Assembly (NCBI RefSeq): GCF_004010195.1
Contig: NC_057749.1
Location: 6,167,933-6,231,932, forward strand
DNA length: 64,000 bases
Origin: Chiloscyllium plagiosum
Taxonomy: Eukaryota
Direction: 5' to 3'
Shown here: piece by piece, positions 1,737 through 58,112 of the stretch
Layout: each line of letters opens with the position of its first letter
How positions within the stretch are numbered: the first letter of the stretch is position 1
Notes under the pieces: model-generated
What the model was told of the DNA's origin: nothing
Database searches by the model: none
What the model saw: only the letters and a program-made list of their open reading frames with translations
Program-made: the position numbers and the translations under genes

Positions 1737-1860
1737 GGAGAAAGTGAGGACTGCAGATGCTGGAGATCAGAGCTGAAAATGTGTTGCTGGAAAAGCGCAG
1801 CAGGTCAGGCAGGAGAATCGACGTTTCTCCTGCTTCTTGGATGCTGCCTGACCTGCTGTG
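1737..1860 (-). mobile_element. Internally deleted fold-back element (family A)
   Basis: Begins ggagaaagtgaggactgcagatgctgg. Imperfect TSD cttacct(tt/aa)tatgc at 1723-1736 and 1861-1874. Confidence 0.75.
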
Positions 1861-2289
1861 CTTACCTAATATGCACCAAGTTCCATGCTACCAAAGTGGG
1901 ACTTATAAACAGTGTACCTCTGCAGTGGCCTGCCTGGCTGTGTTTTCAAGTGATCTCTTTCTCAGCTGGCCTGACTCAGCGGCCTGCCCAACATCCCCCC
2001 ACCCCCAACAATGAAGATCATGGCTTTGGAACAAACTTCTCCAGAAGTGACCGTGCAGAGCCGCGAATTTTCCCAGCTCCCTTCCTCAGGGGTAAGAATC
2101 CACGCCATTTCGCAAAACCAATTCGGTGGCTGTAAATTATTTTGGGACAAACTCAAATTGTGAGCTTCGTTGTTTGAACATAGTAAAACCAAATGTAGAA
2201 ATGCATTTTATGTTGCTTCTCATTGTGTTGCAATCCTGAAGTTAGACGTTTATAAAATTGGGGTGGGCGGGGTTGTTAGTGGTGGTGGA

Positions 2290-3292: not shown

Positions 3293-3589
3293 ATAGCAGA
3301 TAGATGGGAACTCCACCCCTTACAAGTTCCCCTCCTATCCACTCACTATACTGACTTGGAAATACATTGCCCTCCCGTCAGTATTGGTCAAAATCTTGGA
3401 ATACCCTTCCTAATGGCATTGTGGGTGTACATACAGCAAATGGACTGCAGCAATTCATGAAGTCAGCTCACCACCACCTTCTGAAGAGCGAGTAGGAATG
3501 GTCAGCAAACGTTGGCCAGTGACACTGATGTGCTGTGAGTGAATTTCAAAAAAATGAAAATGTTGGTAGATTGGCAATTCCAGGGGTAA

Positions 3590-3738
3590 GAGTTGAGAAG
3601 TATGGCACTGGAAAAGCACAGCAGGTCAGGCAGCATCGGAGGAGCAGAAGAGTCAACGTTTCGGGCATAAGCCTTTTATCGGGAATGCGCCACACTTTTC
3701 AACTCTGATCTCCAGCATCTGCAGTCCTCACTTTCTCC
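3590..3738 (+). mobile_element. Decayed fold-back element (family A)
   Basis: Same arm sequence, ending cagtcctcactttctcc. Confidence 0.75.
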
Positions 3739-5570: not shown

Positions 5571-5920
5571 GGGGTGGCACGGTGGCTCAGTGACTCAGTG
5601 GTTAGCACTGCTGCCTCACAGCACCAGGAACCCTGGATCGCTTCCAGCCTTGGGCGACTGTCTGTGTGGAGCTTGCATATTCTCCCTGTGTCTAGGTCGG
5701 TTTCTCCTCCGGGTGCTCCAGTTTCCTCTCACAGCGCAAAGATGGGCACGTTAGGTGAGTTGGCCATGCTAAATTGCCCATAGTGTTCAGGGATGTGTAG
5801 GTTAGATGCATTAGTCAGGGGAAACGTAGGGGAATAAAGTCTGGATGGGTTACTCTTCAGTGGGTCAGTGTGAACTTGTTGGGCCAAATGGTCTGTTTCC
5901 ACACCGTAGGGATTATATGA
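5571..5920 (+). mobile_element. V-SINE (HE1-like) inserted into CR1
   Basis: Same head, core and tail as 32751-33072. Confidence 0.88.
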
Positions 5921-6233
5921 TAATCTTCTTCACTGTCCACTACAGCACCTATTTTGGTGTTATCTGCAAACTTACTAACCATGCCTCTTATGTTCACATC
6001 CGAATCATTTATATAAATGACAAAAAGCGATGGACACAGCTCCAATCCTTGTAGCACTCCACTGGTGACAGGCCTCCAGTCCAAAAAGCACCATCGTCCT
6101 CTGTCTGCTACCTTCAAGCCAATTTTGTATCCAATTGGCTAGTTCCCATGGGATTCCATGTGATCTAACCTTGCTAACCAGTCTACCAGGCAGAATCTTG
6201 TCAAATGCTTTACTGAAGTCCATATAGACAACG

Positions 6234-6438
6234 AGGAGAAAGTGAGGACTGCAGATGCTGGAGATCAGAGCTGAAAATGTGTTGCTGGAAAAGCGCAGCA
6301 GGTCAGGCAGCATCCAAGGAACAGGAGAATCGACGTTTCGGCATAAGCCTGGGGAAGGGCTTATGCCCAAAACGTCGATTCTCCTGTTCCTTGGATGCTG
6401 CCTGACCTGCTGCGCTTTTCCAGCAACACATTTTCAGC
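6234..6438 (-). mobile_element. Fold-back Penelope-like element (family A) inserted into CR1 RT
   Basis: Inverted arms. TSD tccatatagacaacg at 6219-6233 and 6439-6453. Confidence 0.85.
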
Positions 6439-9400
6439 TCCATATAGACAACGCCTACCATTCTGCCTTCATCAATCTTCTTTGTCACCGCTTCACAACA
6501 TTTGATCAAGTTGGTGAGACATGATTTCCCATGCTCAAAGCCGTGTTGACTATCATTAATCAGTCCTTGCCTTTCTATATGCGTGTTAAATCCTGTCCTT
6601 TAGAATCCCCTCCAACAACTTACCCATCACTGACATAGTTGCTATATTCTTAGACTTACAGGGGCAGCATGAGAGCCAGACATTTTGACAGCTGCTGTGG
6701 AAGGGTAAATATATATGGTAATTGTGAGCACAGGGTGATAGGTGGGTTGTTTGCCAATGTGCCAGGTGGATAAAGGGGAGATTGCTAGTGGTTTGGGTGC
6801 CTGGATCTCAGGTATGTAGGGTACCACGTCAGCTGGTAAATCGATACAATGTCAAGGAGTGAGGAAAGGGGACAGCAAAGAGATGGAACGTTTGGGGCCA
6901 GTTAGGCTGAATGGGGGATATCAAGTCAAGGTCAGAGGGTAAGGTGTCTGGAGATGGCATGGTAAGTTGTGGGAGGAGCTAAATTTAATATCTACCCAGG
7001 TCTTTGACTAGATTTCTAATTCTCTAATTTTACCTGCATGACTATTTACTTGATGACAGTGGCACCCTCCAAATTCCTGTATATAAATACACACTTTTAG
7101 AAGAGTCCAAGCATAGGGAAAAGACCCATTGGAATCGTCAATTTCCTGAACATTTCCCTTGGAGTCTGCTACGTTGGGGATAATGCTGGGTCCCTGTGCA
7201 CAAGTCCCCTCTACACTGTAGTAATGATCATCTGGCCATCGGAAAAGCCAGGACTCTGTCCGGAAAGTGATCCTCACCACCAATGATAAGCTGACTTGCC
7301 TGTGGTTACTGAATTTATCCTTCTCCTCTTGTTAGTGTGAATAAATGATTGCAAAGTGCTGATATTTTCCAGGTCAGGGAAGGTTAAATTTCATAAATAT
7401 TAAACAGCAGCAGCCCTATTATTTTCTGTGAAGTAATATTTCAATATTATAATTTTGGTACTGCATTCAAAGAGCAGAAGGGGAACTGCAGAATAGTCTG
7501 TTTAATGAATAGGTAGTGTTCTGTACTCTTTGAATTTTTAGCCCTAGTTGAATTCATTTTTAATAAGTATTTAAGCTAACGATGTAGGTATAATCCAAAA
7601 TCGAATGTTCACACACTGGCAGAGTTCATAATGTAACATTGTCAATGTTTTAGACCCCCGTGTCCTGCTAGACAGTTTGAGCAATCCTTATTTGACTGAA
7701 AAAAACTTAAATCACAATCTGACTCACACTCTGAATCTGGGTCAGGAGAAGGTTCATTAATATTAGTCCCTCGTATGCTGTTAAATGATAATTCTTAATG
7801 ATGTTATTCCCAACGAAATGTGAGATGGAAATTCCCATGGTGTCAGGAAGCATAGAAACTGGACCCATTTAATTGCCAGAGAGGCCATTTATCAATCTCT
7901 TAACAACTGGAAAGAGCTAACGAGGGAAAAGCAAATGAATGTCAATTAGACTCATCAACAGGCCAAATTGACACCCATTAACCCTGAGCCCACCCTTCAA
8001 ATATGGGAACCACAGTGTACACAGTCTTTCAGGTGCAGTAAATGGCCAGTATAGTGGCAACAAAAGTTCCTTGCTTTTTAGCTCCAACCAACCATTCCCC
8101 ACTCCCACACCACCCCCCATTCCCCCCCTCCCAGCAATTAAGGCCTAATGTGCATTTGCCCTTCTTAACGACTTGCTGTATCTGCATGCTAACAGTTTGT
8201 GTTTGATACACAAGACCATCTGGACCCCTCTGTGCTTCACTGTTTTGGAGTTTACCTCCATTTATATAAAAATCTGCCTTTTGCTAGTCCTGCATTGTTC
8301 TGTAATGTCTGTTCTGCCAGACTGAACGTTACACTTGACAGTGCCTTTATCATTTTTGATCTTCTGTATAAACATCTTGATTATGCTTCTCTCTTTTAAG
8401 ATAGCAATAACTGAGATTGACAGCATTCCAATTTTGTCAAGTGCTTTTTAAAGGAAGGCACATGTGTAACTATTACAGATTGTAGTCTTTCATCTGAATG
8501 TTGCACATATTATATACCAGGGTCCATTTAGCAGTGCTCAGTGGGGAGGCGCATTCAAAGAAAATTTATGTCAGAAATTAGAGATAACACTTTATCTGAC
8601 AGACCCCCTAAAAATCAGGGCTGAAATAGAAATGTAGGGCTGAATTTTCCCAAAGTGTGATTTCAGTGCATTTTGTGATGGGTTTCCCTCTGTGAGCCCC
8701 AGTGACATTTCTCACCTGACGTTACACTGCTCACTTCATTAAGAGTGCACCCTCGCCTCTGCAGTGCTGCTGTTACACAATCTTGTAATTAGCGATGGCC
8801 AAAGTCCCAGGACCTTATGGTGCTCATGTCCCATGATTATGTCCCACCATTTCAAAGGTTGTCAGCCAGGTGTGAAGTAGCCACCTGGGTCAGTATGATC
8901 TGGAGGAACGTACAGTAATGTCATATGAAGGTTATTGACCTTCTGCATTCTTCAAGGATAAGTTCCACTATCTTCCCCCTACTACTTCACACTCTGCCAT
9001 TGCACTCATCTCCAACCAAGACTAATAGACTTCAACTCTTGATATTGCATGCAGCATCTTCTCTCAATGACTCTCACCCCTCTAAATTTTCTTCACTCTG
9101 CAATTCCTACTAATTCACTTGAGACACCTCATCACCTTTTTTGAACAAGGATGGACTAGCCCCTTGACTACCATGGTCTCCATTGACTGGACTAAGGACT
9201 GCTCCCCTTAGACTTAAATGGGTCCAGTTTCTATGCTTCCTGACACAATGGGGTTATTTGGTTGAAAGGTGTTTGCTGTATTAATTGCAGCCACATGTTC
9301 GAGGTGTGACAAAAGACATAGCACAGTGTCGTGCAGCAATATGTCCACCCCCTTGACTGCTCGAGCTGAATTTACCCAGAATTCATCTGAGTGTCAATTC

Positions 9401-10556: not shown

Positions 10557-10690
10557 GATGAAAGTGAGGACTGCAGATGCAGGAGATTAGAGTCGAGAGT
10601 GTGGTGCTGGAAAAGCTCAGCAGGTCAGGCAGCATCCGAGGAGCAGGAGAATCGACGTTTTGGGCAAAAGCCCTTCATCAGGAATGAGGC
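10557..10690 (-). mobile_element. Single-arm family A element with a mutated hammerhead core
   Basis: The - strand reads cattc-CTGATGA-a-gggc-tttt-gccc-AAAA-cgtc-gatt. Confidence 0.8.
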
Positions 10691-14095: not shown

Positions 14096-16397
14096 ATCTC
14101 TGATTGGAAAAAGTCGAAACGGAACTCCCTTTCTCCAATCATTTGGATAGTCCTGATCATCAGCCCTCAATATGGCCGTTAATGTTTGATGCCATCTCTC
14201 TAGTGCTCCCTGTGATTGTGGATGGTATGCCGTAGATTTGAATTGCTTTATTCCCAAGTTATTCATAACCTCCTTGAATGGTTTGGATGTGAACTTTGAC
14301 CCTTGATTGGACTGTATCTCTATTGTTAGTCTGTATCTAGGAAAAACTTTGAATAATTCTTCTACAACCTGTTTAGCTGTGATATTGCATAATGGGACTA
14401 CCTCAGGAAATCTAGTCAATGCATCCGTCATTGTTAATAAATACTTATTCCCACTTTTTGCTTGAGGTAAGGGACCTACGCAATCAATCAAGACTCTTGT
14501 GAAAGGTTCCTCAAATGTTGGAATAGGTATTGAAGGTGCAGGCTTTATTACTGCCTGTGGTTTTCCGATTAGCTGACATGTATTAGCTGGCTGTACAGGT
14601 CACCTGGCAAAATTCAACTTCATCCCTGTGCAGTCCAGGCCAGTAAAAATGTCTTTGTATTTTAGCCTGTGTTTTCCTCACTCCTAAATGATCTCAAGTG
14701 GTAGCTCATGTGCCACTTGCAGCACCTCCTTTCTGTCACCTACTGGCAAAACAATTTAATGAACTTCTGCCCATTTCTCATCTGCTTGACTGTGTGATGG
14801 TCTCCATTTCATTACTAAGACATCATTTTGTTAAGTAATAACACACAGGATGCATTCACCCTCCTTCTCTGCATATGCCTTTTGATACAACTGTTTTAAG
14901 TTCTCATCTTTCTGCTGTAACTCAATAAGCTGAGCAGAGCTAAAGATACTTGCATTTCTAAAATTTGGGTCCCGCTCTGTCCCACTCATTTGATCAAAAA
15001 AAGTCTTTGATAATGCTACTTCCTTATCTGTGCCTTTTGATTTCTCTTGCTTCAGCTTGTGACTCTATGATCTTGTTACTACACAATCAGGGAAGATTCC
15101 TGAATAAACGTCTGCATTTCTTCAGTTGCCTATGTCTCCACTGGCTTTTTAACTAGAGTAGGCAGCACGCCTACCTGTGAATCAGCTATATCATTTGAAG
15201 GGCAAATTGTATTCCTGGGGCTGAGAGTTTGTCCAGTACACCTACCACATATTCTCCACTCTTTTCTGGACAGTTTAGCCTCACTTTTTGTCTCACTATG
15301 GATTTCCGTTACCAGTATCTTTTCTGGCAATAGTCCTTCAGGAGTACATATCTCCTCATTCTTTAGCATCACAAACTGAGAGAATCCTGTGTCCCTTAAT
15401 ATTGTAACTTCTTTACCTACTACTCCTGGCCTGTGTGAATACATTTTTATATTTTTTAGCAGATCTGGCACTTCCTCCTTAATCAACCTCTGATGCAGCT
15501 TTTTAGCTTCCATTGGGCTGTTTGTTACCATGCCAACAAAACTTCCAGGCTTGTCTTATTTTCCTACATCTGGCTTTCCCCCAGCCCACCAGCACTGTGA
15601 TTTCATGTGACCCACTTTATTACAATGAAAACACCGGAGCCTTTTTACCTTCTGTGTCCCCCTCATGGGTTTCTTTTTCACCCTGTGGTAAATTATCTTT
15701 ATGATCTTCACTGAGATCTACCTTTCCCTTTCCACGTGAGGATATCTCTTTGCCCCAGTTTCTATCCCTCATGGACTAAAATTGATTCTGGAGGCCAAAC
15801 TGTGTTTTATGGACCAGCTCATAATCATCAGCCACTTCAGCTGCTAACCTTGCCGTTTCAAACTCTTCAACATGAGTTTGCGCTGCTTCAAGCAGTAATT
15901 TTTTGAATTCCTTCAAATTAATTACCTCTCTAAGGGCATGGTAGGTTTGCTTTACTTTTTATAGCTCTTATCCATCTATCAGAATTTACTTTGTTTGATC
16001 CTTTCAAACTTAACATAGGTTTGATCAGGGTTTCTCCTTAAATCCCTGAAATGTTGTCCATTGGCTCCCGGGTATGTTCACATGCACTTATGTTGGTTTT
16101 TTCACCTCCTCATACTTCCCAGAAATTTCCTCTGATCGTGATCTCTCGCCCTACCTGCAAGTTTTGTTTAGATCAACAAAACCCACATGGTCACTACATT
16201 TGTTTAGCCACTTTTCCAAATGAGATGGAAAAGGCTTCCACGTGCCTTTCATCAAACTTAGGCAATGCTTGACCGTACTTAAACATTTCCCATCAGGCTT
16301 TCGCCCAGCATGGATTTGCTCATCCCCACTCTCTTCTTCACTAGACTTGCCTTTAGCCTTCATCTCCATCCTTTTAAGCTGACTTCCCTTTTTAAGT

Positions 16398-16609
16398 AAG
16401 CAAAAGTGAGGACTGCAGATGCTGGAAACCAGAATTTAGATCAGAGTGGTGCTGGAAAAGCACAGCAGGTCAGGCAGCATCCGAGGAGCAGGAAAATCGA
16501 CGTTTTGGGCAAAAGCCCTTCATCAGGAATCCTGATGAAGGGCTTTTGCCCGAAACGTCGATTTTCCTGCTCCTCGGATGCTGCCTGGCCTGCTGTGCTT
16601 TTCCAGCAG
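16398..16609 (-). mobile_element. Fold-back Penelope-like element (family A) inserted into Gypsy gag
   Basis: Inverted arms centred at ~16529. TSD ttc(c/t)ctttttaagt at 16384-16397 and 16610-16623. Confidence 0.85.
16528..16563 (+). ncRNA. Minimal type-I hammerhead ribozyme motif
   Basis: aatc-CTGATGA-a-gggc-tttt-gccc-GAAA-c-GTC-gatt, with stem I aatc/gatt. The mirror copy on the - strand has GAAA>AAAA. Confidence 0.75.
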
Positions 16610-17051
16610 TTCTCTTTTTAAGTGTCAGTTTTTGCAGTTCAAACTCTCTTTCTCTTTCTCTTCTGCTTCTAACCGTAATTCAAACTGTTTCATTTCTGCT
16701 GCCGTTTCCTTATCTCTCGCCTCTAACTCAAGCTGCTTCATTTGCAATTGAATTCTTGCCATCTCTATATATCCTGATGGTGTTTCCAGCAACTTTAAAT
16801 GCTGAGCTACTGCTGAAATCACCACATCTTTCCTCACATTAGGACGTAACTTCAACGCCAGCTTGTCTACTAACTCCTGCAGCTTGGTCTTCTTCGCCTT
16901 CTGTAAAACTTCCAAAGTCACCTTGTCCACCTCCAGAAAGCTCTTGGTGACTAAGAGAGCCATTGTTATCCCAAGCTTTGTCTACCCAACCAAACCAACA
17001 CCTGAAATAAAGACACTAGCACCTACGACCTACCACAAAGAGCCCCGAGTC

Positions 17052-17670: not shown

Positions 17671-18131
17671 ATATGTTTTTGAGGGGGTTTGACCTGGTCC
17701 ATAACAGACCGGAAAAAACCTTGTCTTACTCCACCTGCTCTGGGCGTGGTCACAGCCATTTCCAGTATGCAGTTATGATGTTTGCAAGAGTAGAAGACAG
17801 CAGGCGCTGTGCTTGGCACAGTGAGTCACAGCCTGGTAATCAAGGAGCCCCCACAAGCCTCCATGTTCCTTTCTTCCTGGCTTTCCTGTTGAGCCCACCA
17901 GTGTGGACCCTCCACACGATCCCAGTAATCAATTTGAATTGTGACTTAATCTCCCAGCATTACCCCCTGAGCCCAAGACAGCTTAGTTATTGTGCTGCAT
18001 TGGCCCCCACCGTCAAAGTTGCAGCGCTTGTCATTGTCAGTGATTCTCCCCTTTCTGCGTGGTGTCAGTACAGCCGCAGGGCTATGTAAGTAATGTGAAC
18101 CAACTGATCGGAGTGGCATATACCCATGCTG

Positions 18132-18349
18132 AAACTTTATTGCTGGAACAGCACAGCAGGTCAGGCAGCATCCAGGGAACAGGAGATTCGACGTTTCGGG
18201 CACAGGCCCTTCTTCATTCCTGAAGAAGGGCCTGTGCCCGAAACGTCGAATCTCCTGTTCCCTGGATGCTGCCTGACCTGCTGTGCTGTTCCAGCAATAA
18301 AGTTTCAACTTTGATCTCCAGCATCTGCAGACCTCACTTTCTCCTCGAA
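18132..18349 (+). mobile_element. Fold-back Penelope-like terminal-repeat element (family A) with a 15-bp TSD
   Basis: Perfect inverted arms centred at ~18217. TSD catatacccatgctg at 18117-18131 and 18350-18364. Confidence 0.85.
18216..18251 (+). ncRNA. Minimal type-I hammerhead ribozyme motif
   Basis: attc-CTGAAGA-a-gggc-ctgt-gccc-GAAA-c-GTC-gaat. Stem I is attc/gaat, stem II is gggc/gccc, the catalytic core and GUC triplet are intact, and stem III is vestigial. Activity is untested. Confidence 0.75.
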
Positions 18350-19617
18350 CATATACCCATGCTGTAAATTCTGTGTGATTTTATGCTCAATATAGAGGTC
18401 TTGAAGTGACCCAATTGCATAAACATGAGAAAATGCTCAAAGAGCAGACATAATCCTGCCTTACATTACTCACCTCTCAAATCAATAGTGTAAATGATGT
18501 TTAAAAATAAACCCATTTATTACTTGTGGATAATTTTGGGATTATAGGCCACTTTTGAACATGATTACCACTTAAGGTATTAAAATTGATTCTGTTGTTC
18601 TGCAATTTCTAATCTTCAATAATTTTAATCTGTACTTAAATATCGATGGGTAGGAACCAGAGCCGTGCTAAATCCCACAACAACGGATTATTTGATAAGT
18701 GACTCACTGAAGCGCTTCCCGCATTTTATGCACATTAGAAATCTTTCTCAATGCCTTTCATTCGGCAAAGGTCTAGCATGATCAGCTCAATTCTCATGCA
18801 AACCGTGCCCTTTGAAGGAGTCGCTTTATTCCTTTACAGAGAATAGACTAATAGAACTTTAATGTACGGAAAAGTACAAAGCAATCTGGAAAGTTTCAAG
18901 TCTCATTCTTGGTCTTGATAGCTATGGGAGGGGAATTTATGGCAAAAAGGTGGCAATGGCCCAGTGGTATTATCGCTGTGTTCTTAATACATAGACCTTT
19001 ATAACATTCTGTGAACCTGGGTTCAAATCCTGCTATGGCAGGTAATGGTATTTGAAGCTAATAACAGCAGAAACAAATTTTGGATTAAGAGTCTAATGAT
19101 GTCCATAAATTGATTGTGGGGAGGAGCCACCACCTAATGCCCTGGCAGGTAGGACAGACCCATAGCCTTTCCCTGTAATGAAACTGAAGCATGGTTCTTT
19201 TATTATTGCCCTCGATAAAATCATCAACTGTGCAGTGACAGGCGATGAAACCTTTATAACATTTTCATTCCATTCATTGCATGAAACCATTAAGAATGAG
19301 GAGAAAATTCTGAGGAACGCAACTTTGCATAATTTTCTTTTCACCCATTGACAGTAATTTCTCCATGGGGAATAAAGGATTTGCTAGCATGTTGCAAGTA
19401 ATCAGTAGATTAATGCCTCTGTTACTAGCTAGGAGGATTACTGGAATTAATCCATTAATGCAAGGCAAAACCGTGCACACTCTGAATGACTTCACATTTA
19501 ACACACAATTTAATCTGATTTGGCCTGGCTAATCTCAGAAAAGTGACAGTCATATTATAGCCACATCTCTATTATTTCTTGGAGTATAGGTATGAGTTAT
19601 GAATCAATTCTGATGGG

Positions 19618-32750: not shown

Positions 32751-33072
32751 GGCGGCACGGTGGCTCAGTGGTTAACACTGCTGCCTCACAGTGCCAGGGA
32801 CCCGAGTTCAATTCCCGCCTTGGGCAACTGTCTGTGTGGAGTTTGCACATTCTCCCCGTGTCTGCGTGGGTTTCCTCAGGGTGCTCTGGTTTCCTCCCAC
32901 TGTCCAAAGATGTGCAGGTCAGGTGAATTGGCCGTGCTAAATTGCCCGTAGTGTTAGGTGTCAGGGGTAAATGTAGGGGAATGGGTCTAGGTGGGTTGCT
33001 CTTCGGAGGGTCGGTGTGGACTTGTTGGGCCGAAGGGCCTGTTTCCACGCTGTAGGGGATCTGATCTAAAAA
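32751..33072 (+). mobile_element. tRNA-derived V-SINE (HE1-like)
   Basis: A box tggctcagtgg, B box gagttcaattcc, V-domain-like core tgtgtggagtttgcacattctccccgtgtctgcgtgggtttcc, and CR1-like tail gggccgaagggcctgtttcc. Confidence 0.9.
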
Positions 33073-36480: not shown

Positions 36481-38634
36481 ACCTGCTGTGCTTGTTCAGC
36501 TTCACGTATATTGACTCTGGCTTCCAACACCTGCAGTTCTTCCTGTCCCCTAGTTTTTGAAAGAGTGCTGAGTTCCAAAGTGGAGTCATCCTCCCAACAG
36601 TCAGGGCCCCTTAGAATCAGAATATATTTCTTCAAGATCACCTCTCACTCTTCTAAGCACCAATGAATCAGTACACATACCTCATTTCAGGCCATGATAC
36701 ACTCTGAGTTCCCATTACATATATTTTTGATGAATGTCTTGAAGGAAAAGAGAGACGTTAAGCCATGATCTTTCCCCAGCAACTGATATTGAAGAAAAAC
36801 TTGGTAAACCATAACGCAAGTGGAAAATGTTTTAAGCTTACAATGGGAGGAACAAAGACCTTTCGAGATAAATTAAAGCAGAACATGGTTGACGCTGCCA
36901 AAGAAGCTGCTAAGAATTCCATCTCGTTCCCCACATGTAAAGAAAACAAGGGCTTCAGAAGCAAATATTTATGTGAATATTCCTTTAGTGAATTGACTTG
37001 TGAAATTTTGCAGTGAATGTAGACAGATTATACCAAAAACTCTCCAATTTGGGTTTTAGCACCTTACTAAGTAAGATTTTAAAATATCACATAAACGGCG
37101 GACAGGGTTGGCTGGCTAGCACTCTCAATGGTTCAGAAGCTTAATTCATGGCTCATTTTGATGCTGGACTTTATAGCCTGACATGATGTGGGTCTGACCC
37201 TCACTGTAGAGTGAGTTAACTCATTGCAGCCAAGAGAGCAGTTCAGGAGTTATAAGCATTATGAGGACCTTGGACCAAGTCAAAGGTCAAAATGGGCAGG
37301 CAGACCTTCTACTTGTGACCCTGTTCAACCTGGCATCTACCAGGTGCAGATGGAATGTGAGGAGCACCCAGGTTAGCTGCAAGGATAATATCCTCAAATA
37401 GCTCACTTGTGCTCACTGCCTGTGCAGTGAAGATTAGTCAATTTGGTGAGATTCTGGAATTTGGTGAGTGCCTATTGAGCCATTAGAGTGTGCCTTCGTG
37501 GGAAAACATTGGAGGGATCAATAATATTCAAAATTATTTATTTAATTGATAATATTCTAACAACCTTTTGTCAGATGTTGCAAAAAATGTCTCTGAACAA
37601 GCAATGGGAAATAAAATAAAGACTCATAATCAATATTATCAGAAAAGAATATTTCTTAAAGAATCCCACCCAAGCGATAAATGTAAAAAGATAATTTAGT
37701 CTTTCCCCGCTGCACACCAGTAACATTCCTCTTCAATCTCTTCCTATACAGTTGTGAAAGTGTGTTTTTTAAACAGGTTAACTAATTCATTAGAGTAGCA
37801 CAGAAAGGAATCAACCAGTGCACAGAAAACATCAAACGATAGTGTGACTGCTAAATCTGGAATCTGACTCCAGAATCATTGTAAGATCTACACACCATCC
37901 TAATGCCACAGGTAAGCAGGTTGGATGAGCGAAGAAGACAATGATTAGAGCTGACAGAACATGATATGCCGCCAACTTGTCGAATCGAGAATGAGAAGTG
38001 AAAGATTAAGTTATCTATTTTGTTGGGATTTTTTTCCCCATTTTAAGAATGGGAATTATTTTGTTTGCAGGGAGTTTGCTTGTCGATGTCATCAATCTGT
38101 GTTAGATGCATGAATGGAGAGCACATGATGTTAATTCTCAAGATACGAGCGTCGCTATCTGGCCTAACATTTATCACTTAGCCTTGGTTGGACCATCATG
38201 CAATTAACTGACTTGTGGGCTACTTTAGGGAGTGGTTAAGACTCAACCACATTGGTGTTATGTATGGTCCATATCCCAGGTAAAGACAGCATGTACAATC
38301 TCCCTATAAAACATCAATGAATCAGTTGACCTTTATGTCAGATTAGCAGTTAGTTTTATTTCTATTATATAATTTGCAAATATATTTTTAAACAGAATTA
38401 CAATTTGAACTTATTTTTTCTGAATTTCTAGTCGAGTAACAGAAACAGTACATGACCAGGTCCTACGGTGGCAACTAAAAAGAAGTCAATTTGTCTAGTA
38501 AAGAAATACCTTGTAAAATTTGCATATAATAATAATTCTCACTTTGAAGTCATTGTATGTCTGGTGACACATAGCTGTTCTTTCACCATTGATCTCAAGG
38601 TAAGACCATGCAGTCCAAGGCTGAGGTGACATTA

Positions 38635-38846
38635 AGGCTGAAAATGTGTTGCTGGAAAAGCACAGCAGGTCAGGCAGCATCCAAGGAGCAGGAGAATCGA
38701 CGTTTCAGGCATGAGTCCTTCAGGAAGAAGGACTCATGCCCGAAACGTCGGTTCTCCTGCTCCTTGGATGCTGCCTGACCTGCTGCGCTTTTCCAGCAAC
38801 ACATTTTCAGCTCTGATCTCCAGCATCTGCAGTCCTCACTTTCTCC
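38635..38846 (+). mobile_element. Fold-back Penelope-like element (family A)
   Basis: Inverted arms. TSD ctgaggtgacatta at 38621-38634 and 38847-38860. Confidence 0.85.
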
Positions 38847-39386
38847 CTGAGGTGACATTACGTTATGCTTGATTTCTCATTCTAGATGACACAGACCTTT
38901 TCAAGGCTTGAAAATTGTCATCATCATTTGGAATAAGATATCAAACACAGCATACCAATCTCCAGTTCTGGAGAAGAGTTGCTGTTCTCAAGACATTGGC
39001 TCTGCTTTCTCTCCACAGATCCTGCCAGACCGGCTGAATTTATTGAATCATATATTCCCCACAGTGTGAAAAGAGGCCATTCAGCCCATCAAGCCTGCAC
39101 TAACCCTCCAAAGAGCATTCCATCCAGACCAGCATCCCAACCCTATCCCCTTAACTCAACACTTATCATGGCTGGTCGGCATGGACGGGTTGGACCGAAG
39201 GGTCTGTTTCCATGCTGTACATCTCTATGACTATGACTCTATAACCTGCACATCCATGCTGAATTTCTTCAGCCGTTTCTGTTTTAGTTTCATTGTAATT
39301 TTCCCTTCATTATTCTTTCACAGCTTGTGAACTTCCCTAGTTAGTCAGCATTAATTCCTTATTTAATTGCCTTTGGGAAGGTAGCA

Positions 39387-39510
39387 GGAGAAAGTGAGGA
39401 CTGCAGATGCTGGAGACCAGAGTTGAAAAATGTGGTGCTGGAAAAACACAGCAGGCCAGGCAGCATCCGAGTAGCAAGAGGCATTTCGGGCATAAGCCCT
39501 TCTTCAGGAA
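39387..39510 (-). mobile_element. Single-arm family A element
   Basis: Arm sequence flanked by ggaaggtag(c/t)ag direct repeats. Confidence 0.75.
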
Positions 39511-40609
39511 GGTAGTAGTGAGCTGCCCTCTTGAACTGCTGTCATCCTTGTGGTGTAGAAACATTTCAGTTAGAAAGGAAGATCCTGACCCAAAATGATG
39601 GACTGCACGCAACCCAGAGAAAGAAATTCCCAAAGAGATGTCGGGTGTCCCCACTATTTCATCAGACAGTCAAACTTTCACATCAAAAACAATCATTGGA
39701 CAAGTCCGTCAAACATCATTAACTAACTAAAAGCAAAATACAATGGATGCTGGGAATCTGAAGTGAAAACAGAGAATGTTAGAGAAGCTCAACAGGTCTG
39801 GCAGCATGTTTGGAAATTGAACAGATCAATCATTTTGAAAGCTTGTGTTTTCAAATAAACCCGTTGGACTATAACCTGGTGTCGTGTGATTTTTGACTTT
39901 GTCCATCCCAGTTCAACACCTCTACATTTTGAGTCCAGTATGACTTCTTGGAAAATCAATCAGAGTTAACAGTTCGGGTCAAGAATGTCTGAGGAGGGGT
40001 GACTCGAGCCAAGACATTAACTCTCATTTTTGTCCACAGATGCTGCCAGACCTGCTGAGCTTTTCCAGCAAAACTTTGTTTTCTTTCTGTTTTACTGCAT
40101 CCTCAAATCTTTTGGTTTTTAAGAAGAGTTGTAACAGAGTCAAAGCTCTCTCCACAGATCCTGTCAAACCTACTGAGTTTCTCCAGCACCCTCTGGTTTT
40201 ATATCATTAACCAACTATTCTGATTTGAACTGAATAGCTTCCCTGTGTCATACTTGAGGAATTGGTATGACAATGCATTGGGCAATGCATTCCATGAATT
40301 CAGCAAGTCTGGCAAGATCTGTGGAGAGAAAGCACAGCCAACATCTCAAGTCCAGCAATCCAACTTGCCATAATTCAAGTTCTCCAGTCCAAAATGCTTA
40401 CGATCAAGTCATTTCCAGATAGCATAATTTTCTGGATTACAGAATGTTAGAATGCCTAAATACATGCATGCAAACTGGAAAACACCGCTGATGTAACTAC
40501 TTGCCTGAAACATAAAACAGTGACAAGATTCAAAACTGTTTAATGCAAATTGTGTTGTCCATTCAGGAATATATCGCTGGTGCTTTGCTTGTTTGTTAAA
40601 AAAATACAT

Positions 40610-42405: not shown

Positions 42406-43526
42406 TTCCTATAAGGTATTCATAAACCAGATGGGGTGTTATTGTTTTGGCAAATGATGATTGTTTTATACTTAACATTACTAGCTTCCAATCTATATTG
42501 AATTGAGTTCAAACTTCATTAGCTGCCAATATAGGACTTGAATCAGTGCCTCTAAAGTGTTATCCTGTGCCCCAGGAGTCCTAGCCAAAAGGGATGACCA
42601 CTATCTCCTTGCATGCAGCTCAAGAAGGATGTTTCAAAGTCAAATGTATTTTTTCCATCAAATTACATGTGATATTGCTCACAGTGAGTCAGCCCAATTC
42701 TGGATTTTGTCCAGATCTTGTTGCATTTGAAAATGGACTACTTCAGTATCTGAGGATGGTTTCAGGTGGATTGCACTGTGTGGTTGGTTGAGTTTACAAC
42801 CCGAGAGGAATTGTTAAGATGAATATATTTTGAAAAAATTTTTTTTTAATAAGTGGTTTATTTGACCCTGCTTTGCAGTAAAATCCTACCATTACCTTTA
42901 TGAGAGTGCTTTTGTGGTGCATTGATAGTGTCCCTCCCTCTGGGCCAGGAGGTCTGGCTTCAAGTCTCTCCTCCTCTAGAAGTGTGCTATAACATGTCAG
43001 AGCCAGATGATTTAAAAATATCTGTTTTTTATGAGGATAATGATGGTTTTTGAGTTCCAAATTTCAGTGTGGCACCAAGATAGAAAATAAACCTATTGTT
43101 GTTAAAGGTTATAAATTTATTCCTCGTGAAGATGTATTAAGTCAAACTCCCTTCTTCACTTGTCTCATAATTAGCTTGTGATGACAAAACAGGTCCAACT
43201 TGAATTTATGAATTGATGGAATAGTTGTTATTTAGGGTAAATACAGAGAATGCAAGGTGCTACTTCTTGGAAAAATTTGATTTTCTCAGGAGAGAGCACG
43301 ATAGCAATATCAGGGAGCCCAGCTTTGCTTGATGTGATCACGGAACTGTCTCAATTATAACAAAGGGAGAGTAGTGGGTTGATACACTTTCAAGTTAATT
43401 TGTATGGTCACCAAAGTAAAACAACAGTATTGGTAAAGGGTATCTAGGAGATTTTAATGAGTTTCAGGGAGTAGGGAAGGAGGTAACATAAGGGTCTGTT
43501 ACTCAATACATAGTGACAAATATTAA

Positions 43527-43699
43527 AGTCAAAGAGTGGGGTGCTGGCAAAGCATAGCTGGTCAGGCAGCATCCGAGGAGTTGACGTTTTGGGCATAAGC
43601 CCTTCATCAGGTTGCTCCTCGGATGCTGCCTGACTGGCTGTGCTTTTCCAGCACCACACTCTTCAACTCTGATCTCCATCTGCAGTCCGCACTTTCTCC
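43527..43699 (+). mobile_element. Decayed fold-back element (family A)
   Basis: Inverted arms flanked by tagtgacaa direct repeats (43511, 43700). Confidence 0.78.
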
Positions 43700-44237
43700 T
43701 AGTGACAAGGGTTAAGTATGCAGTAAAATCAAACAAATTAAAAGGCTTCATGGTGGGTGCATTTTCCCTTCCTTATATCCAGTGGAAGTTTGATATCCCA
43801 CGCAACGAAGAACAACTCACACAGCCTCAGAAACCTACATACATCAGCCTCACTGTCTTCATGTGCTCAGCCCTTACCTCATGTTGCTGGTCATCGTAGT
43901 TGTGGTGGGGAACACTTATGATTAAAAAAGAGAAATTGCTCCATTTCCAAGTAACCAATTCTCTTAACCATGTCCCGCAATCTCCTGTGCACCAACAATC
44001 ACAGTTCCAGATCCAGTCTGATCTCAGGGAGGAAAAAAACAGAAATACAGTCCACTGATCCGAATTAAAAAAAATACTACTTCCTCCAAAATGAATGAAA
44101 GGGTCATGGAAGTGAAATTAGAAAGGTCTTTGTGGAAGGGGTTAGCATTTGGCACAATAGACAGGTGTAAGTGGCTGGGTCATCTTGTTTTGTAGGTAAT
44201 TATAGTGTAAAAGTCTACTGCTGGCCTCAGTGTTATA

Positions 44238-45274: not shown

Positions 45275-45552
45275 TGGGGGGCATTGTGACTCAGTGGTTA
45301 GCACTGCTGCCTCACAGCACTAGTGATCCGGGTTCAAATTACCCTCAGTTGACTGTGTGGAGTTTTCACATTTTCTGCTTGGGTTTCCTCGAGGTGCTCT
45401 GGTTTCTTTCCACAGTCCAAAGATGTGCGGGTTGGATGGATTGGACAAGGGAAATACAATTGCAGGAATAGGGGGGCGTCTGGGTAGGAAGCTCTTCAGA
45501 GAATCAGTGTGAACTTGATGGGCTGAATGGCTTGTAGAGTTTCTATGATTCT
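45275..45552 (+). mobile_element. Decayed V-SINE
   Basis: Head ctcagtggttagcactgctgcctcacagc and core present. Confidence 0.8.
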
Positions 45553-47817: not shown

Positions 47818-48260
47818 GGGGCAGCTCAGTGGCTCAGTGGTTAGCACTGCTGCCTCACAGCGCCAGAGACCCAGGGTCGATTCCAGCCTCGGGTAACTGT
47901 CTGTTGAGTTTGTATGTTCTCCCCATTTCTGCCGTGTGCTCCAGTTTCCTCTCACAGTCCAAAGATGTGCAGGTCAGGTGAATTGGCCATGCTAAATTGC
48001 CCGTAGTGTTAGGTGAAGAGGTAAATGTAGGAGTATGGGTCTGGGTGCTATACGCTTTGGCGGGTCGGTGTGGACTTATTGGGCCAAAGGGCCTGTTTCC
48101 ACACTGTAAGTAATCTAATCTAATCTAATCTAATCTAAACTGCCCAGAGTGTTAGGTGTATTGGTCAGAGGAAAATTGGTCTGAGTGGGTTACTCTTGGG
48201 AGGGTCGGTGTGGACTTGTTGGGCCGAAGGGCCTGTTTCCACACTGTCGGGAATCTAATC
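47818..48260 (+). mobile_element. V-SINE with an (aatct)n tail, followed by a second 3' half
   Basis: Full copy at 47818-48137, then a second 3' segment at 48138-48260. Confidence 0.88.
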
Positions 48261-53480: not shown

Positions 53481-53732
53481 TAAGGGGTGATAGATATAGT
53501 ACAGATGTCAGAGGTAGTTTCTTTACTCAGAGAGTAGTAAGGGTATGGAATGCTTTGCCTGCAACAGTAGTAGATTCGCCAACTTTAAGTACATTTAAGT
53601 CGTCATTGGACAAGCATATGGATGTACATGGAGTAGTGTAGGTTAGATAGGCTTCAGATTGGAATGACAAGTTGGCACAACATCGAGGGCCGAAGGGCCT
53701 GTACTGTGCTGTAATGTTGTATGTTCTATGTT
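53481..53732 (+). mobile_element. CR1 3' end, (ttctatg)-tail subfamily
   Basis: Reverse-complement similarity to 26860-27105 and 62674-63040. Confidence 0.85.
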
Positions 53733-53734
53733 TT

Positions 53735-53935
53735 ATAACACACTTAACCTCTTCAACACAGCCAATCCACCTAAACCGCACATCTCTGGACTGTGGAAGA
53801 AAACTGGAGCACCCAGGGGAAACCCATGCAGACATGGGGAAAATGTGCCAACTCCAGTCACCTGAGGGTGGAGTCAAACTCAGGTCCCTGGCACTGTGAG
53901 GCTGCCTTAATAATCACTGAGCGATCATGACACTG
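53735..53935 (-). mobile_element. Partial V-SINE
   Basis: Reverse-complement head and core. Confidence 0.75.
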
Positions 53936-55754: not shown

Positions 55755-56790
55755 TTACTCTCACCTTTTGTTTTGCTTCTCTCCCTCACTCTCTGTTCTC
55801 CCCTCCCCACTGCTCTCCCCTCTATCTGCTATTTTCATCTCTCTACTGTATGCCCTGGTCTCTATTATTCTGCCCTCTCTACTGCTAGTCTGCCCTCTCT
55901 ACTGTACTCTCCCTCTCTCTCTCTGCTCTCTCCATTCTCTGTTCTCCCCTCTCTCTGCTTTACTCCCCACTATCAGCTANNNNNNNNNNNNNNNNNNNNN
56001 NNNNNNNNNNNNNNNNNNNNNNNNNNNNNNNNNNNNNNNNNNNNNNNNNNNNNNNNNNNNNNNNNNNNNNNNNNNNNNNNNNNNNNNNNNNNNNNNNNNN
56101 NNNNNNNNNNNNNNNNNNNNNNNNNNNNNNNNNNNNNNNNNNNNNNNNNNNNNNNNNNNNNNNNNNNNNNNNNNNNNNNNNNNNNNNNNNNNNNNNNNNN
56201 NNNNNNNNNNNNNNNNNNNNNNNNNNNNNNNNNNNNNNNNNNNNNNNNNNNNNNNNNNNNNNNNNNNNNNNNNNNNNNNNNNNNNNNNNNNNNNNNNNNN
56301 NNNNNNNNNNNNNNNNNNNNNNNNNNNNNNNNNNNNNNNNNNNNNNNNNNNNNNNNNNNNNNNNNNNNNNNNNNNNNNNNNNNNNNNNNNNNNNNNNNNN
56401 NNNNNNNNNNNNNNNNNNNNNNNNNNNNNNNNNNNNNNNNNNNNNNNNNNNNNNNNNNNNNNNNNNNNNNNNNNNNNNNNNNNNNNNNNNNNNNNNNNNN
56501 NNNNNNNNNNNNNNNNNNNNNNNNNNNNNNNNNNNNNNNNNNNNNNNNNNNNNNNNNNNNNNNNNNNNNNNNNNNNNNNNNNNNNNNNNNNNNNNNNNNN
56601 NNNNNNNNNNNNNNNNNNNNNNNNNNNNNNNNNNNNNNNNNNNNNNNNNNNNNNNNNNNNNNNNNNNNNNNNNNNNNNNNNNNNNNNNNNNNGTTCTCCC
56701 TTCTCTGCCGATCCCCCTCCCTGCTCCCCCTCTCTATATTGACTTGTCTTTAATGTTACTGCCTCTCTCTCTCTGCTCCTCCCCCTGTGG
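55755..56790. repeat. CT-rich low-complexity tract spanning an assembly gap
   Basis: Pyrimidine-rich sequence on both sides of the N run. Confidence 0.8.
55980..56692. other. Assembly gap (N run)
   Basis: Seen directly. Confidence 1.
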
Positions 56791-57770: not shown

Positions 57771-57786
57771 CATTTATGGCACTCAT

Positions 57787-58112
57787 GGGGTGGCTCAGTA
57801 GCTAGCACTGCTACCTTACAGCACCAGGGACCCAGGTTCAATTCCATCCTCGGGTGATTGTCTGTGAGGAGTTTGTACATTCTCCCTGTGTCTGCGTGGG
57901 TTTCCTTTGGGTGCTCCGGTTTCTTCCCACTGTCCAAAGATGTGCAAGTTAGGGTGGACTGACCATGCTATATTGTTAGGTTAGGTGGTGCAGACATGGG
58001 AAATGCAGGGATAGCGGGGGCAGGGGTTGGCCTGGGCCGAGTGGCCTTCAGGAGGTCAGTGTGGACTCAATGAGCTGAATGGCCTGCTTCTGCACTGAAG
58101 GGATTCTATGAT
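57787..58112 (+). mobile_element. V-SINE
   Basis: Head, core and decayed tail. Confidence 0.85.

What the first reader, a model, noticed from the sequence alone, without database searches (positions are those of the whole stretch)
18117..18364. Non-coding ~200-bp fold-back mobile elements built around a hammerhead ribozyme, inserting with 14-15 bp TSDs
Seen: this element is a perfect palindrome with an exact 15-bp TSD, and its axis sits immediately 5' of an intact hammerhead motif (attc CTGAAGA a gggc ctgt gccc GAAA c GTC gaat). Sister copies at 6234, 16398 and 38635 have their own distinct 14-15 bp TSDs, so each is an independent insertion. Two of them sit inside older CR1 or Gypsy copies. 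One arm runs to a fixed end (...cctcactttctcc or a close variant), the other arm is variably truncated, and the inversion point falls in or beside the ribozyme core. Established: Penelope-like elements carry minimal hammerheads lacking a stable stem III in their terminal repeats and often insert with an inverted repeat. Inference: this is a young, high-copy, ribozyme-processed non-autonomous (or severely truncated) Penelope derivative in a shark, and self-cleavage or template switching near the ribozyme may set the fold-back point. No GIY-YIG or RT coding sequence for it is visible in this window.
Basis: partly seen in the sequence, partly recalled or inferred. Interest (0 to 1): 0.85.

Follow-up and report, generated by a model that had tools for sequence, protein, structure and literature searches.

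The report
Truncated head-to-head Penelope retroelement copy
The 220-base palindrome is a real, recent insertion, but it is the ordinary dead-end product of a Penelope-like jumping gene: two short copies of the element's end, each with a small hammerhead motif, joined head to head.

Summary
There is a perfect 87-nt inverted repeat, an exact 15-bp target duplication, a minimal hammerhead motif beside the axis, and sister copies with their own duplications.

The ~125-nt unit is the terminal segment of a Penelope-like element (PLE). Elsewhere in the genome, longer copies continue upstream into a frame with reverse transcriptase and GIY-YIG domains.

The shape matches the published PLE insertion pattern: an inverted 5'-truncated copy, a 30-40-bp "tail" on one side only, and variable duplications (PMC8557442, PMC3846280).

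In 46 sampled copies, 24 are fold-backs. The shorter arm usually ends at a second fixed site about 33 nt inside the 3' end, which fits the two reverse-transcription start sites shown for an anole PLE (PMC11167929).

The axis lies at the 5' edge of the hammerhead. It does not lie at its GUC cleavage site.

In 10 of 24 fold-backs each arm holds sequence the other lacks, so both were copied from RNA.

Nothing here points to a new element class. An earlier scan report on other DNA of this genome reached the same verdict. Why most copies stop exactly at the hammerhead's 5' edge stays unexplained.

The parts
18117..18131 (.). left target-site duplication, CATATACCCATGCTG (its last 2 nt also pair within the palindrome)
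18132..18216 (-). inverted arm: unit positions about 90 down to 2, without the terminal 'tail'; its hammerhead box lacks the first C
18217..18220 (.). 4 nt between the arms (TTCC), the axis of the palindrome, at the 5' edge of the hammerhead motif
18220..18349 (+). forward arm: unit position 1 (C of CTGAAGA) to the 3' end ...CACTTTCTCCTCGAA
18216..18252 (+). PLE-type minimal hammerhead motif: helix I attc/gaat, CTGAAGA, bulged A, helix II GGGC/GCCC, GAAA, palindromic ACGT, predicted cut after GTC at 18247
   Evidence: feature list from PMC4209133; no Rfam match
18308..18349 (+). one-sided extension ('tail'): the part of the forward arm with no inverted partner, lying between the two preferred outer end sites
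   Evidence: PMC8557442, PMC11167929
18350..18364 (.). right target-site duplication
6219..6453 (-). sister fold-back (arms 6235-6349 and 6349-6440) with a 15-bp duplication at 6219-6233 and 6439-6453, inside an older element with a reverse-transcriptase-like frame
16388..16623 (-). sister fold-back (arms 16403-16530 and 16530-16608) with a duplication at 16388-16397 and 16614-16623
38621..38860 (+). sister fold-back (arms 38628-38722 and 38724-38846) with a 14-bp duplication
43511..43708 (+). older fold-back: the inverted arm reaches unit position 0, the forward arm starts at 39; 9-bp duplication
1737..1866 (-). fold-back whose arms do not mirror each other (forward 50-125, inverted 73 down to 21)
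3589..3738 (+). fold-back with a twin-priming layout: inverted arm 75 down to -4, forward arm 75-125
39376..39515 (-). simple (single-arm) copy, unit positions 1-125, with a 9-bp duplication
10559..10690 (-). simple copy, unit positions -8 to 123

Best explanation
The element is a dead-on-arrival, extremely 5'-truncated insertion of an endonuclease-bearing Penelope-like element (PLE), in the head-to-head (inverted) form typical of PLEs.

What the unit is. The repeated unit is about 125-130 nt long. It runs from the element's minimal hammerhead motif to the place where the PLE reverse transcriptase starts copying. In this family the segment lies in the leader just upstream of the ORF. It is repeated at the 3' end as a pseudo-LTR.

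Likely course of events (inferred).
1. The GIY-YIG endonuclease nicks both target strands about 15 bp apart.
2. Each 3' end primes reverse transcription of element RNA at one of two internal start sites. These are near unit position 90 (...CAYATTTTCAG) and near positions 125-130 (...CACTTTCTCC).
3. Both cDNAs run to, or close to, an end of template at the 5' edge of the hammerhead.
4. The two ends are joined, often through a few shared bases.

This gives two inverted arms, one about 33-40 nt longer (the 'tail'), inside a duplication of about 15 bp. Some copies with very short or exactly mirrored arms may instead arise by self-priming of the first cDNA.

Role of the hammerhead. It is carried along as part of the sequence. 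Its cleavage site plays no visible part in setting the ends.

Shown versus inferred. Shown: the anatomy, the link to coding PLE copies, and the statistics of the ends. Inferred: the order of events and the priming of both strands.
For: 1. Link to a PLE.
- 971 genomic sites carry the hammerhead box joined to 27 nt of fixed upstream sequence, against 0 for the reversed-pattern control.
- 30 such loci show variable 5' truncation up to about 925 nt upstream.
- L061:7562-8461 matches Pfam GIY-YIG (E 6.4e-5, 23.6 bits, cut-off 22.6).
- L067 has a 649-aa open frame with RVT_1 (E 2.5e-6) and GIY-YIG (E 3.2e-4). About 155 nt after it comes the unit, 92.7% identical to the window copy and with the same subfamily-specific letters.
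- L066 has the unit at both ends, 96 of 103 nt identical, around an ORF.
- L088 shows the same subfamily's unit continuing into the ORF start.

2. Copy number (reversed-pattern controls 0).
- 72,922 exact 29-nt 3' ends.
- 30,051 hammerhead boxes.
- 12,782 hits at up to 1 mismatch for a 33-mer specific to the finding's subfamily.

3. Architecture in 46 copies not selected on their 5' structure.
- 24 are fold-backs.
- The inner end of the inverted arm lies within unit positions -4 to +8 in 20 of 24.
- Its outer end lies within 86-98 in 16 of 24, and at 125 in 1.
- The outer ends fixed by the duplications read ...CACATTTTCAG(C).

4. Exact duplications of 9 bp or more were found in 37 elements. 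In the 23 fold-backs they are mostly 14-16 bp.

5. In 10 of 24 fold-backs the inverted arm holds at least 10 nt of 5' sequence that the forward arm lacks, while the forward arm holds the tail. Neither arm can therefore be a copy of the other.

6. Published parallels.
- An inverted 5'-truncated copy and a 30-40-bp tail, often at one end only (PMC8557442).
- A 31-bp tail on one inverted pLTR, palindromic junctions, and TSDs of 8-10 bp (PMC3846280).
- The anole PLE protein cleaves and extends both strands, starts at two adjacent internal RNA sites with the tail between them, and does not need hammerhead cleavage (PMC11167929).
Against: - The RVT_1 score on L067 (27.8 bits) and its GIY-YIG score (21.4 bits) are just below Pfam's cut-offs. 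P0001 found no solved structure by sequence.
- I have no intact full-length copy of the finding's own subfamily. L067 is 5'-truncated, L066 is a more distant family, and part of L066 reads N.
- Priming of both strands is taken from in-vitro work on another species' PLE, not shown here.
- The strong pile-up of 5' ends at the edge of the hammerhead is not explained by simple random truncation.
- The sample is small: 46 elements from the window, the first 0.8 Mb of contig C1 and bystander copies. BLAST ends are good to about 3 nt.
- Two 'simple' copies turned out to have inverted arms of 8 and 14 nt that do not end at a start site. These fit self-priming better.
Confidence: 0.85

Rival explanations
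1. A true non-autonomous family. On this reading the ~125-nt unit, or the fold-back, is itself transcribed and repeatedly mobilised in trans by PLE proteins, like a SINE or a 'non-LTR retrozyme'.
For: - The 5' ends are sharply defined, at -8 to +8 in 12 of 22 simple copies.
- Copy number is very high.
- Short units far outnumber those followed by the ORF start: 12,782 against 748 pattern hits.
- Tandem arrays of hammerhead-bearing monomers with a 224-nt period exist.
- A 2026 preprint argues that animal retrozymes derive from PLE pLTRs (abstract and passages).
Against: - The unit is letter-for-letter the end of coding copies of the same subfamily.
- Inserted copies end at the start site. They therefore lack the ~55 nt downstream that the anole PLE needs for activity in vitro (PMC11167929).
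- Arms of a fold-back are no closer to each other than to the best other copy. Only 10 of 32 reach or beat the best other copy, so private lineages are not visible.
- The RNA reads laid lie on both strands, and their depth follows copy number.
Confidence: 0.1
2. Hammerhead self-cleavage of the template RNA defines the end of the cDNA, and so the fold-back point.
For: - The motif has every feature listed for PLE minimal hammerheads.
- The axis is always near it.
- Core and helix II positions are somewhat better kept than the rest (0.963 against 0.904; one-sided Mann-Whitney p = 0.029).
Against: - Cleavage would leave a 5' end at unit position 29. Of 70 arm ends in the sample, 44 lie at -8 to +8. 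Only scattered ones lie at 31-39, and none sits cleanly at 29.
- The inserted copies contain the whole motif, including the part 5' of the cut.
- The laid RNA reads show no pile-up of starts or ends.
- In the anole PLE, catalytic hammerhead mutants insert normally (PMC11167929).
Confidence: 0.03
3. A fold-back DNA transposon or MITE with terminal inverted repeats.
For: Palindromic shape and flanking direct repeats.
Against: - The ends are asymmetric. One arm has a 33-42-nt extension.
- Duplications vary from 9 to 17 bp.
- Many copies are single-armed or have non-mirrored arms.
- Longer copies show graded 5' truncation and carry reverse transcriptase and GIY-YIG domains.
Confidence: 0.01

Closest known systems
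Endonuclease-bearing Penelope-like elements (Penelope/Poseidon type): pLTR with an adjacent inverted 5'-truncated copy and a one-sided 30-40-bp tail
   Same: [quoted passage not shown]
- The unit repeated at both ends.
- A minimal hammerhead in that repeat.
- Head-to-head inverted copies, with an extension on one side only.
- Strong 5' truncation and variable target duplications.
   Different: - Here both arms are cut down to about 90-130 nt, so nothing but the hammerhead-to-start-site segment remains.
- Duplications centre on 14-16 bp, against 8-10 bp in the rotifer examples read (PMC3846280).
- In this family the ORF start lies about 40-50 nt beyond the unit's 3' end (seen in L066 and L088). 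In the anole element the ORF starts inside the hammerhead.
PAc, the Anolis carolinensis PLE studied in vitro (Frangieh et al. 2024, PMC11167929)
   Same: - Two preferred outer ends about 33 nt apart, downstream of the hammerhead.
- The tail lies between them.
- The products are compatible with priming from both target strands.
- There is no sign that hammerhead cleavage is needed.
   Different: - No biochemistry exists for the shark-type element.
- PAc's preferred target (ATT, AT-rich DNA) was not examined here.
- The start sites share a CAYTTTC-like motif here, rather than the 'AC-rich stem-loop' described for PAc.
Minimal hammerhead ribozymes of metazoan PLEs (Cervera and de la Pena 2014, PMC4209133)
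   Same: - CUGANGA and GAAA boxes, and a UH cleavage site.
- An extra base before helix II.
- A G10.1-C11.1 pair.
- No real helix III, but a palindromic ACGU.
- A short helix I.
- Pairs on opposite strands 100-700 bp apart were already noted there.
   Different: - Activity is untested.
- Helix II is invariant in this family, so covariation gives no support.
- Rfam's hammerhead models do not match.
L1 5' inversions by twin priming
   Same: It works alike in the copies where the inverted arm carries the 5' part and the forward arm the 3' part (for example 3589-3738).
   Different: - In most copies here the two arms cover the same stretch of the template.
- The second primer site is a preferred internal start site rather than a chance microhomology.
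- The enzyme is a PLE reverse transcriptase with GIY-YIG, not L1 ORF2p.
Non-LTR retrozymes (tandem hammerhead repeats of animals)
   Same: Same type of hammerhead and the same PLE origin. 224-nt tandem arrays of the unit plus the ORF start occur elsewhere in this genome.
   Different: The finding is a dispersed inverted pair, not a tandem array. No circular RNA evidence exists.

Membership tests
Penelope-like element (EN+) | Single ORF with a reverse transcriptase followed by a C-terminal GIY-YIG endonuclease | tested here: met
   L067 649-aa frame: RVT_1 E 2.5e-6 (27.8 bits, cut-off 29.6) and GIY-YIG E 3.2e-4 (21.4 bits, cut-off 22.6), in that order. L061 ORF: GIY-YIG 23.6 bits, above the cut-off. 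These are related long copies, not the window. The L067 scores are marginal.
Penelope-like element (EN+) | The short unit is continuous with such coding copies | tested here: met
   In L067 the unit lies about 155 nt after the ORF. It is 92.7% identical to the window copy and shares its subfamily-specific letters. Graded upstream extension is seen in L031-L060.
Penelope-like element (EN+) | Pseudo-LTR: the same segment at both ends of a full-length copy | tested here: met
   L066: 5' and 3' repeats, 96 of 103 nt identical, covering unit positions -15 to 88. This is one copy of a related family, and part of its interior reads N.
Penelope-like element (EN+) | Adjacent inverted 5'-truncated copy and a 30-40-bp tail at one end | tested here: met
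   24 of 46 sampled copies are fold-backs. 16 of 24 shorter arms end 27-39 nt short of the 3' end. In the finding the unpaired extension is 42 nt.
Penelope-like element (EN+) | Reverse transcriptase groups with PLE and telomerase enzymes in a tree | not tested
   No phylogeny was made. P0001 found no solved structure by sequence.
Hammerhead ribozyme (PLE minimal type) | Core boxes CUGANGA and GAAA, with a UH cleavage site in the right order | tested here: met
   18220-18247. Boxes are intact in 42 of 66 sampled arms that cover them.
Hammerhead ribozyme (PLE minimal type) | Helix II with G10.1-C11.1, an extra base between positions 9 and 10.1, and palindromic 15.2-16.2 | tested here: met
   A + GGGC/GCCC and ACGU, read from the sequence. 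Criteria come from PMC4209133. All 4 pairs are formed in 65 of 79 arms.
Hammerhead ribozyme (PLE minimal type) | Helix I between the sequence before the box and the sequence after the cut | tested here: inconclusive
   4 bp (AUUC/GAAU) in the finding's subfamily. In the two other subfamilies read there are only 2 bp plus 1.
Hammerhead ribozyme (PLE minimal type) | Match to curated hammerhead covariance models | tested here: not met
   No hammerhead family appeared at gathering score in the window. None appeared at E up to 10 around the finding or in its natural upstream context. Minimal hammerheads lack helix III, which these models expect.
Hammerhead ribozyme (PLE minimal type) | Compensatory changes in the helices | tested here: inconclusive
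   Helix II shows only one-sided changes (G-U or mismatches) and no double changes. Non-CpG positions of the core and helix II are kept at 0.963 against 0.904 elsewhere (p = 0.029).
Hammerhead ribozyme (PLE minimal type) | Self-cleavage | not testable with these tools
   Needs in-vitro transcription of monomer and dimer. The laid RNA reads showed no ends at the site, but that library is not suited to the question.
Non-LTR retrozyme | Head-to-tail tandem array of hammerhead-bearing monomers | tested here: not met
   The finding is an inverted pair. Arrays with a 224-nt period do exist elsewhere (L088; the spacing of hits).
MITE / fold-back DNA transposon | Symmetric terminal inverted repeats and a target duplication of fixed length | tested here: not met
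   The ends are asymmetric. Duplications range from 9 to 17 bp.

The most novel reading that the evidence does not exclude
Most insertions of this PLE may be 'leader-only' retrocopies.

On this reading the element's RNA starts at an initiator-like TCATTC that ends right at the hammerhead box. The hammerhead would then sit at the very 5' end of the transcript. The reverse transcriptase recognises its two start sites within the first ~130 nt of that same RNA.

Initiation on the 5'-proximal copy of the sites, instead of the 3' pseudo-LTR copy, would run off the RNA after about 90-130 nt. That would explain why about half or more of arm ends stop at the hammerhead's 5' edge: 44 of 70 arms in the 46-copy sample and 38 of 78 in the window-and-bystander set. 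It would also explain why tens of thousands of such units, half of them head-to-head pairs, litter the genome.

It would make genomic copies a direct read-out of PLE transcription start and start-site choice in vivo.
Probability: 0.3. Interest if true: 0.45.

Novelty: new member of a known kind. Interest (0 to 1): 0.2.

Why it matters
On its own the finding matters little. It is one of at least tens of thousands of dead copies of a Penelope-like element family in a 3.56-Gb genome, and its shape is textbook for that class.

Its use is as data. The copies give a natural census of PLE insertion products, and that census agrees with the only in-vitro study of a PLE on three points:
- two start sites, with the tail between them
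- products expected if both target strands are extended
- no role for hammerhead cleavage

The census also adds an unexplained point: a sharp stop at the 5' edge of the hammerhead.

There are practical consequences too. Tens of thousands of near-perfect 90-bp hairpins can break assemblies. They also mimic microRNA precursors; Rfam's mir-3158 model scored 56.5 bits on this one.

Tried and rejected
- Rfam, with gathering scores on the window and E up to 10 on two stretches. No hammerhead family matched. The only hits were hairpin look-alikes of microRNA families below their cut-offs, which I read as an effect of the perfect palindrome.
- DNA search of the own genome with the 133-nt unit. It found nothing because very common words are skipped. 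It was replaced by pattern searches.
- C5:53362874, a hit reported with a 1088-aa open frame. The long frame was an effect of a withheld N run, and the copy is 5'-truncated.
- RNA evidence. No RNA holder was listed for the stretch. I laid two raw single-cell polyA RNA runs and two contig sets on L067:60-560. One raw run gave 0 reads. The other gave 1,823 reads on both strands, with depth following genomic copy number and no place where many molecules begin or end. The library type cannot map 5' ends, so nothing can be concluded on a transcription start or on cleavage.
- Test of whether full-length copies start at the same point as the short ones. Of 10 small stretches then fetched, 4 read N, 4 showed an inverted arm in front of the 5' unit, and 2 were off target. 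The question stays open.
- Same-molecule origin of the two arms. Arms are more alike than average pairs (0.93 against about 0.87), but no more alike than the best other copy. The test cannot separate one RNA from two RNAs of one subfamily.
- Hairpin just upstream of the box as a stop for the reverse transcriptase. It is present in one subfamily (GAGGCT...AGCCTC) but not in the finding's subfamily, so it is not a general explanation.
- Downstream promoter element at the expected distance from the initiator-like motif. It does not fit the register, so it was not claimed.
- Sequence search of P0001 against solved structures: no match.
Full report
**1.

Window 18130-18216 and 18221-18307 are perfectly complementary arms of 87 nt, with 4 nt between them. 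CATATACCCATGCTG stands at 18117-18131 and again at 18350-18364. The right arm continues to 18349 (...CACTTTCTCCTCGAA), so 42 nt have no inverted partner.

The hammerhead-like string lies at 18216-18252: attc CTGAAGA a GGGC ctgt GCCC GAAA cg TC gaat. Its GTC is at 18245-18247, and the axis (18217-18220) sits at its 5' edge.

A 30-nt core pattern and a 26-nt end pattern each had 0 matches in 100 shuffles of the window.

BLAST of the unit against the window finds these copies:
- fold-backs at 1737-1866, 3589-3738, 6235-6440, 16403-16608, 18130-18349, 38628-38846 and 43522-43699
- single-armed copies at 10559-10690 and 39387-39507
- older fragments

These are 15 bp, 10 bp (13 of 14 if extended) and 14 bp.

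**2. The unit is the end of a Penelope-like element**

I number the unit from the C of the CTGA(T/A)GA box (position 1). The predicted cut is after position 28. The common 3' end is at 125, or 130 in the finding's subfamily.

Counts in the window's own 3.56-Gb assembly, with reversed-pattern controls at 0:

| Pattern | Matches |
|---|---|
| 29-nt 3' end | 72,922 |
| box...GAAACGTCGA | 30,051 |
| 33-mer specific to the finding's subfamily, up to 1 mismatch | 12,782 |
| box joined to 27 nt of fixed upstream sequence, up to 1 mismatch | 971 |

The perfect palindrome therefore reflects youth within a large, homogeneous subfamily.

Thirty loci carrying the upstream sequence show graded 5' truncation up to about 925 nt upstream. 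The upstream sequence is coding:
- L061:7562-8461 matches Pfam GIY-YIG above its cut-off.
- L067 has a 649-aa open frame with RVT_1 and then GIY-YIG, both just under the cut-offs. About 155 nt further on comes a unit with the same subfamily-specific letters as the window copy, at 92.7% identity.
- L066, a more distant family, has the segment from -15 to 88 at both ends (96 of 103 nt identical). An ORF starts about 50 nt after the 5' unit.
- L088 shows the finding's subfamily unit running on into that ORF start.

A search with the GIY-YIG part gave 138,554 first-look candidates, of which 150 were scored. The window itself has no such coding sequence.

**3. Anatomy of the copies**

I assembled 46 copies that reach the 3' end and were not chosen on their 5' structure. 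They comprise:
- 9 copies from the window
- 19 of the 20 centre copies of the loci anchored on the 3'-end pattern (one was too short for BLAST)
- 18 bystander copies in other loci

The centre copies of loci picked through the box or the upstream pattern were left out.

Twenty-four are fold-backs and 22 single-armed. At least 2 of the 'single-armed' ones carry inverted arms of only 8 and 14 nt.

| Feature | Result |
|---|---|
| Inner end of inverted arm (fold-backs) | -4 to +8 in 20 of 24 |
| Start of forward arm (fold-backs) | -3 to +7 in 12 of 24; the rest spread over 10-75 |
| Start of single-armed copies | -8 to +7 in 12 of 22; 6 run further upstream; 4 start at 33-91 |
| Outer end of shorter arm | 86-98 in 16 of 24; at 125 in 1; 36-81 in 7 |

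Where the duplication fixes the boundary, the shorter arm reads ...CACATTTTCAG(C), and the long arm reads ...CACTTTCTCC(TCGAA). The 'variably truncated' arm thus mostly stops at a second preferred site about 33 nt inside the first. Both sites share a CAYTTTC-like string.

Exact duplications of 9 bp or more were found in 37 of the 87 elements listed. In the 23 fold-backs among them the lengths were:

| Length (bp) | 16 | 15 | 14 | 13 | 12 | 11 | 10 | 9 |
|---|---|---|---|---|---|---|---|---|
| Fold-backs | 3 | 7 | 6 | 1 | 1 | 3 | 1 | 1 |

The 14 single-armed copies had 9-17 bp.

**4. What this says about mechanism**

In 10 of the 24 fold-backs the inverted arm holds at least 10 nt of 5' sequence that the forward arm lacks, while the forward arm holds the tail that the inverted arm lacks. 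Neither arm can be a copy of the other, so both were reverse-transcribed from RNA.

Twelve are near-mirror images, the finding among them. For these, self-priming of the first cDNA cannot be excluded. The arms of 8 and 14 nt fit it better.

L088 is a single insertion bounded by a 13-bp duplication. It contains four units, a 224-nt tandem and two pieces of the ORF start. This shows that the enzyme readily jumps between templates and re-enters at the 125-130 site.

These features match published PLE biology:
- Craig et al. 2021 (PMC8557442; passages) describe the adjacent inverted 5'-truncated copy and a 30-40-bp tail, often at one end only.
- Arkhipova et al. 2013 (PMC3846280; passages) describe a 31-bp tail on one inverted pLTR and palindromes at the inverted junction. 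They read these as self-priming.
- Frangieh et al. 2024 (PMC11167929; main text read) show that the anole PLE protein cleaves and extends both target strands. It starts at two adjacent internal RNA sites with the tail between them, and it inserts equally well with catalytically dead hammerheads.

**5. The hammerhead**

The motif meets the traits that Cervera and de la Pena 2014 list for PLE minimal hammerheads (PMC4209133; first two of four parts read):
- the core boxes
- an extra base before helix II
- the G10.1-C11.1 pair
- a palindromic ACGU in place of helix III
- a short helix I (4 bp in the finding's subfamily)

That paper already notes pairs of such motifs on opposite strands 100-700 bp apart, and ascribes most single motifs to truncated PLEs.

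Rfam's hammerhead models do not match, even at E up to 10.

In 106 sampled arms, the non-CpG positions of the core and helix II are kept at 0.963 against 0.904 for the rest (one-sided Mann-Whitney p = 0.029). The free positions (N7, loop II) vary most. Helix II shows no double changes. 34 of 66 arms keep the boxes and all four pairs.

There is no pile-up of ends at position 29, where cleavage would leave one. The ribozyme's cut does not set the axis.

**6. What stays unexplained**

About half or more of the arm ends stop within a few bases of the 5' edge of the motif: 44 of 70 in the 46-copy sample and 38 of 78 in the window-and-bystander set. Random truncation does not give that.

Three candidate causes remain:
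- An RNA 5' end. D. virilis Penelope has an internal initiator-type promoter (PMC2377424; passages), and rotifer pLTRs have initiator-like motifs.
- A stop of the reverse transcriptase.
- Cutting by the element's own endonuclease.

I could not decide between them. The RNA reads available were single-cell polyA reads on both strands with no pile of starts. L066's 5' repeat starts at -15, and the L088 jumps occur at -18 and -2. RNA ends in this region therefore look heterogeneous.

**7. Comparison and verdict**

The thing works like, and by the tests above is, a PLE insertion product. It is not a new class of non-coding mobile element, and it is not a DNA transposon. PLEs are already listed among shark repeats (PMC8455134; one passage).

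I found no description of this particular family or of the stop at the hammerhead edge. The searches cover open-access papers and bioRxiv only. The supplements of the 2026 retrozyme preprint, which sampled one cartilaginous fish, were not seen.

An earlier report of this scan on another piece of the same genome reached the same verdict. My tests agree with it independently.

I did not verify that the genome is a shark's.

Noticed in passing
L088 (G000:C1:26521700-26523100), 241-1117: One insertion bounded by a 13-bp duplication holds four units, a 2.5-copy tandem of 224 nt (99% matches) made of unit plus ORF start, and a further ORF piece. It reads as a string of template jumps. Hits spaced 224 nt apart recur at many genomic places, so these retrozyme-like arrays are either a recurrent product or an amplified form.
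   Followed up: partly
window 18180-18257 (-): Rfam's mir-3158 model scores 56.5 bits (E 4e-10, cut-off 97) on the palindrome. Several other microRNA models also score, below their cut-offs. Tens of thousands of such fold-backs could be mistaken for, or act as, hairpin RNA precursors.
   Followed up: no
unit positions -6 to -1, e.g. window 18214-18219 and L067:263-268 (-): The bases just before the hammerhead box read (C)TCATTC in three subfamilies. This fits an initiator-type start-site consensus (recalled), with its A 4 nt before the box, where many copies begin.
   Followed up: partly
L067:60-127: Beside the PLE copy lies another very high-copy repeat with an A-run behind it. Its read depth in the laid runs was as high as the PLE unit's. 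It is probably a SINE.
   Followed up: no
window 32759-32935, 45362-45448, 47825-47987, 53692-53850, 57783-57950, 58696-58869: The first ~60 residues of the L067 frame are not part of the PLE. They match six places in the window at 45-62% identity, so another repeat family is shared between L067 and the window.
   Followed up: no
window 55980-56692: A run of 713 N in the window.
   Followed up: no
window 5860-6232 (-): The 6234 fold-back interrupts an older retroelement whose frames give weak RVT_1 matches. Another genomic copy (L020) sits in what looks by eye like the same reverse-transcriptase motif region of such an element.
   Followed up: partly
runs X1-X18: Contig sets labelled with four different coded organisms hold 32-72% of the sampled 31-mers of the finding's subfamily unit. 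Near-identical copies therefore exist in more than one labelled organism.
   Followed up: no
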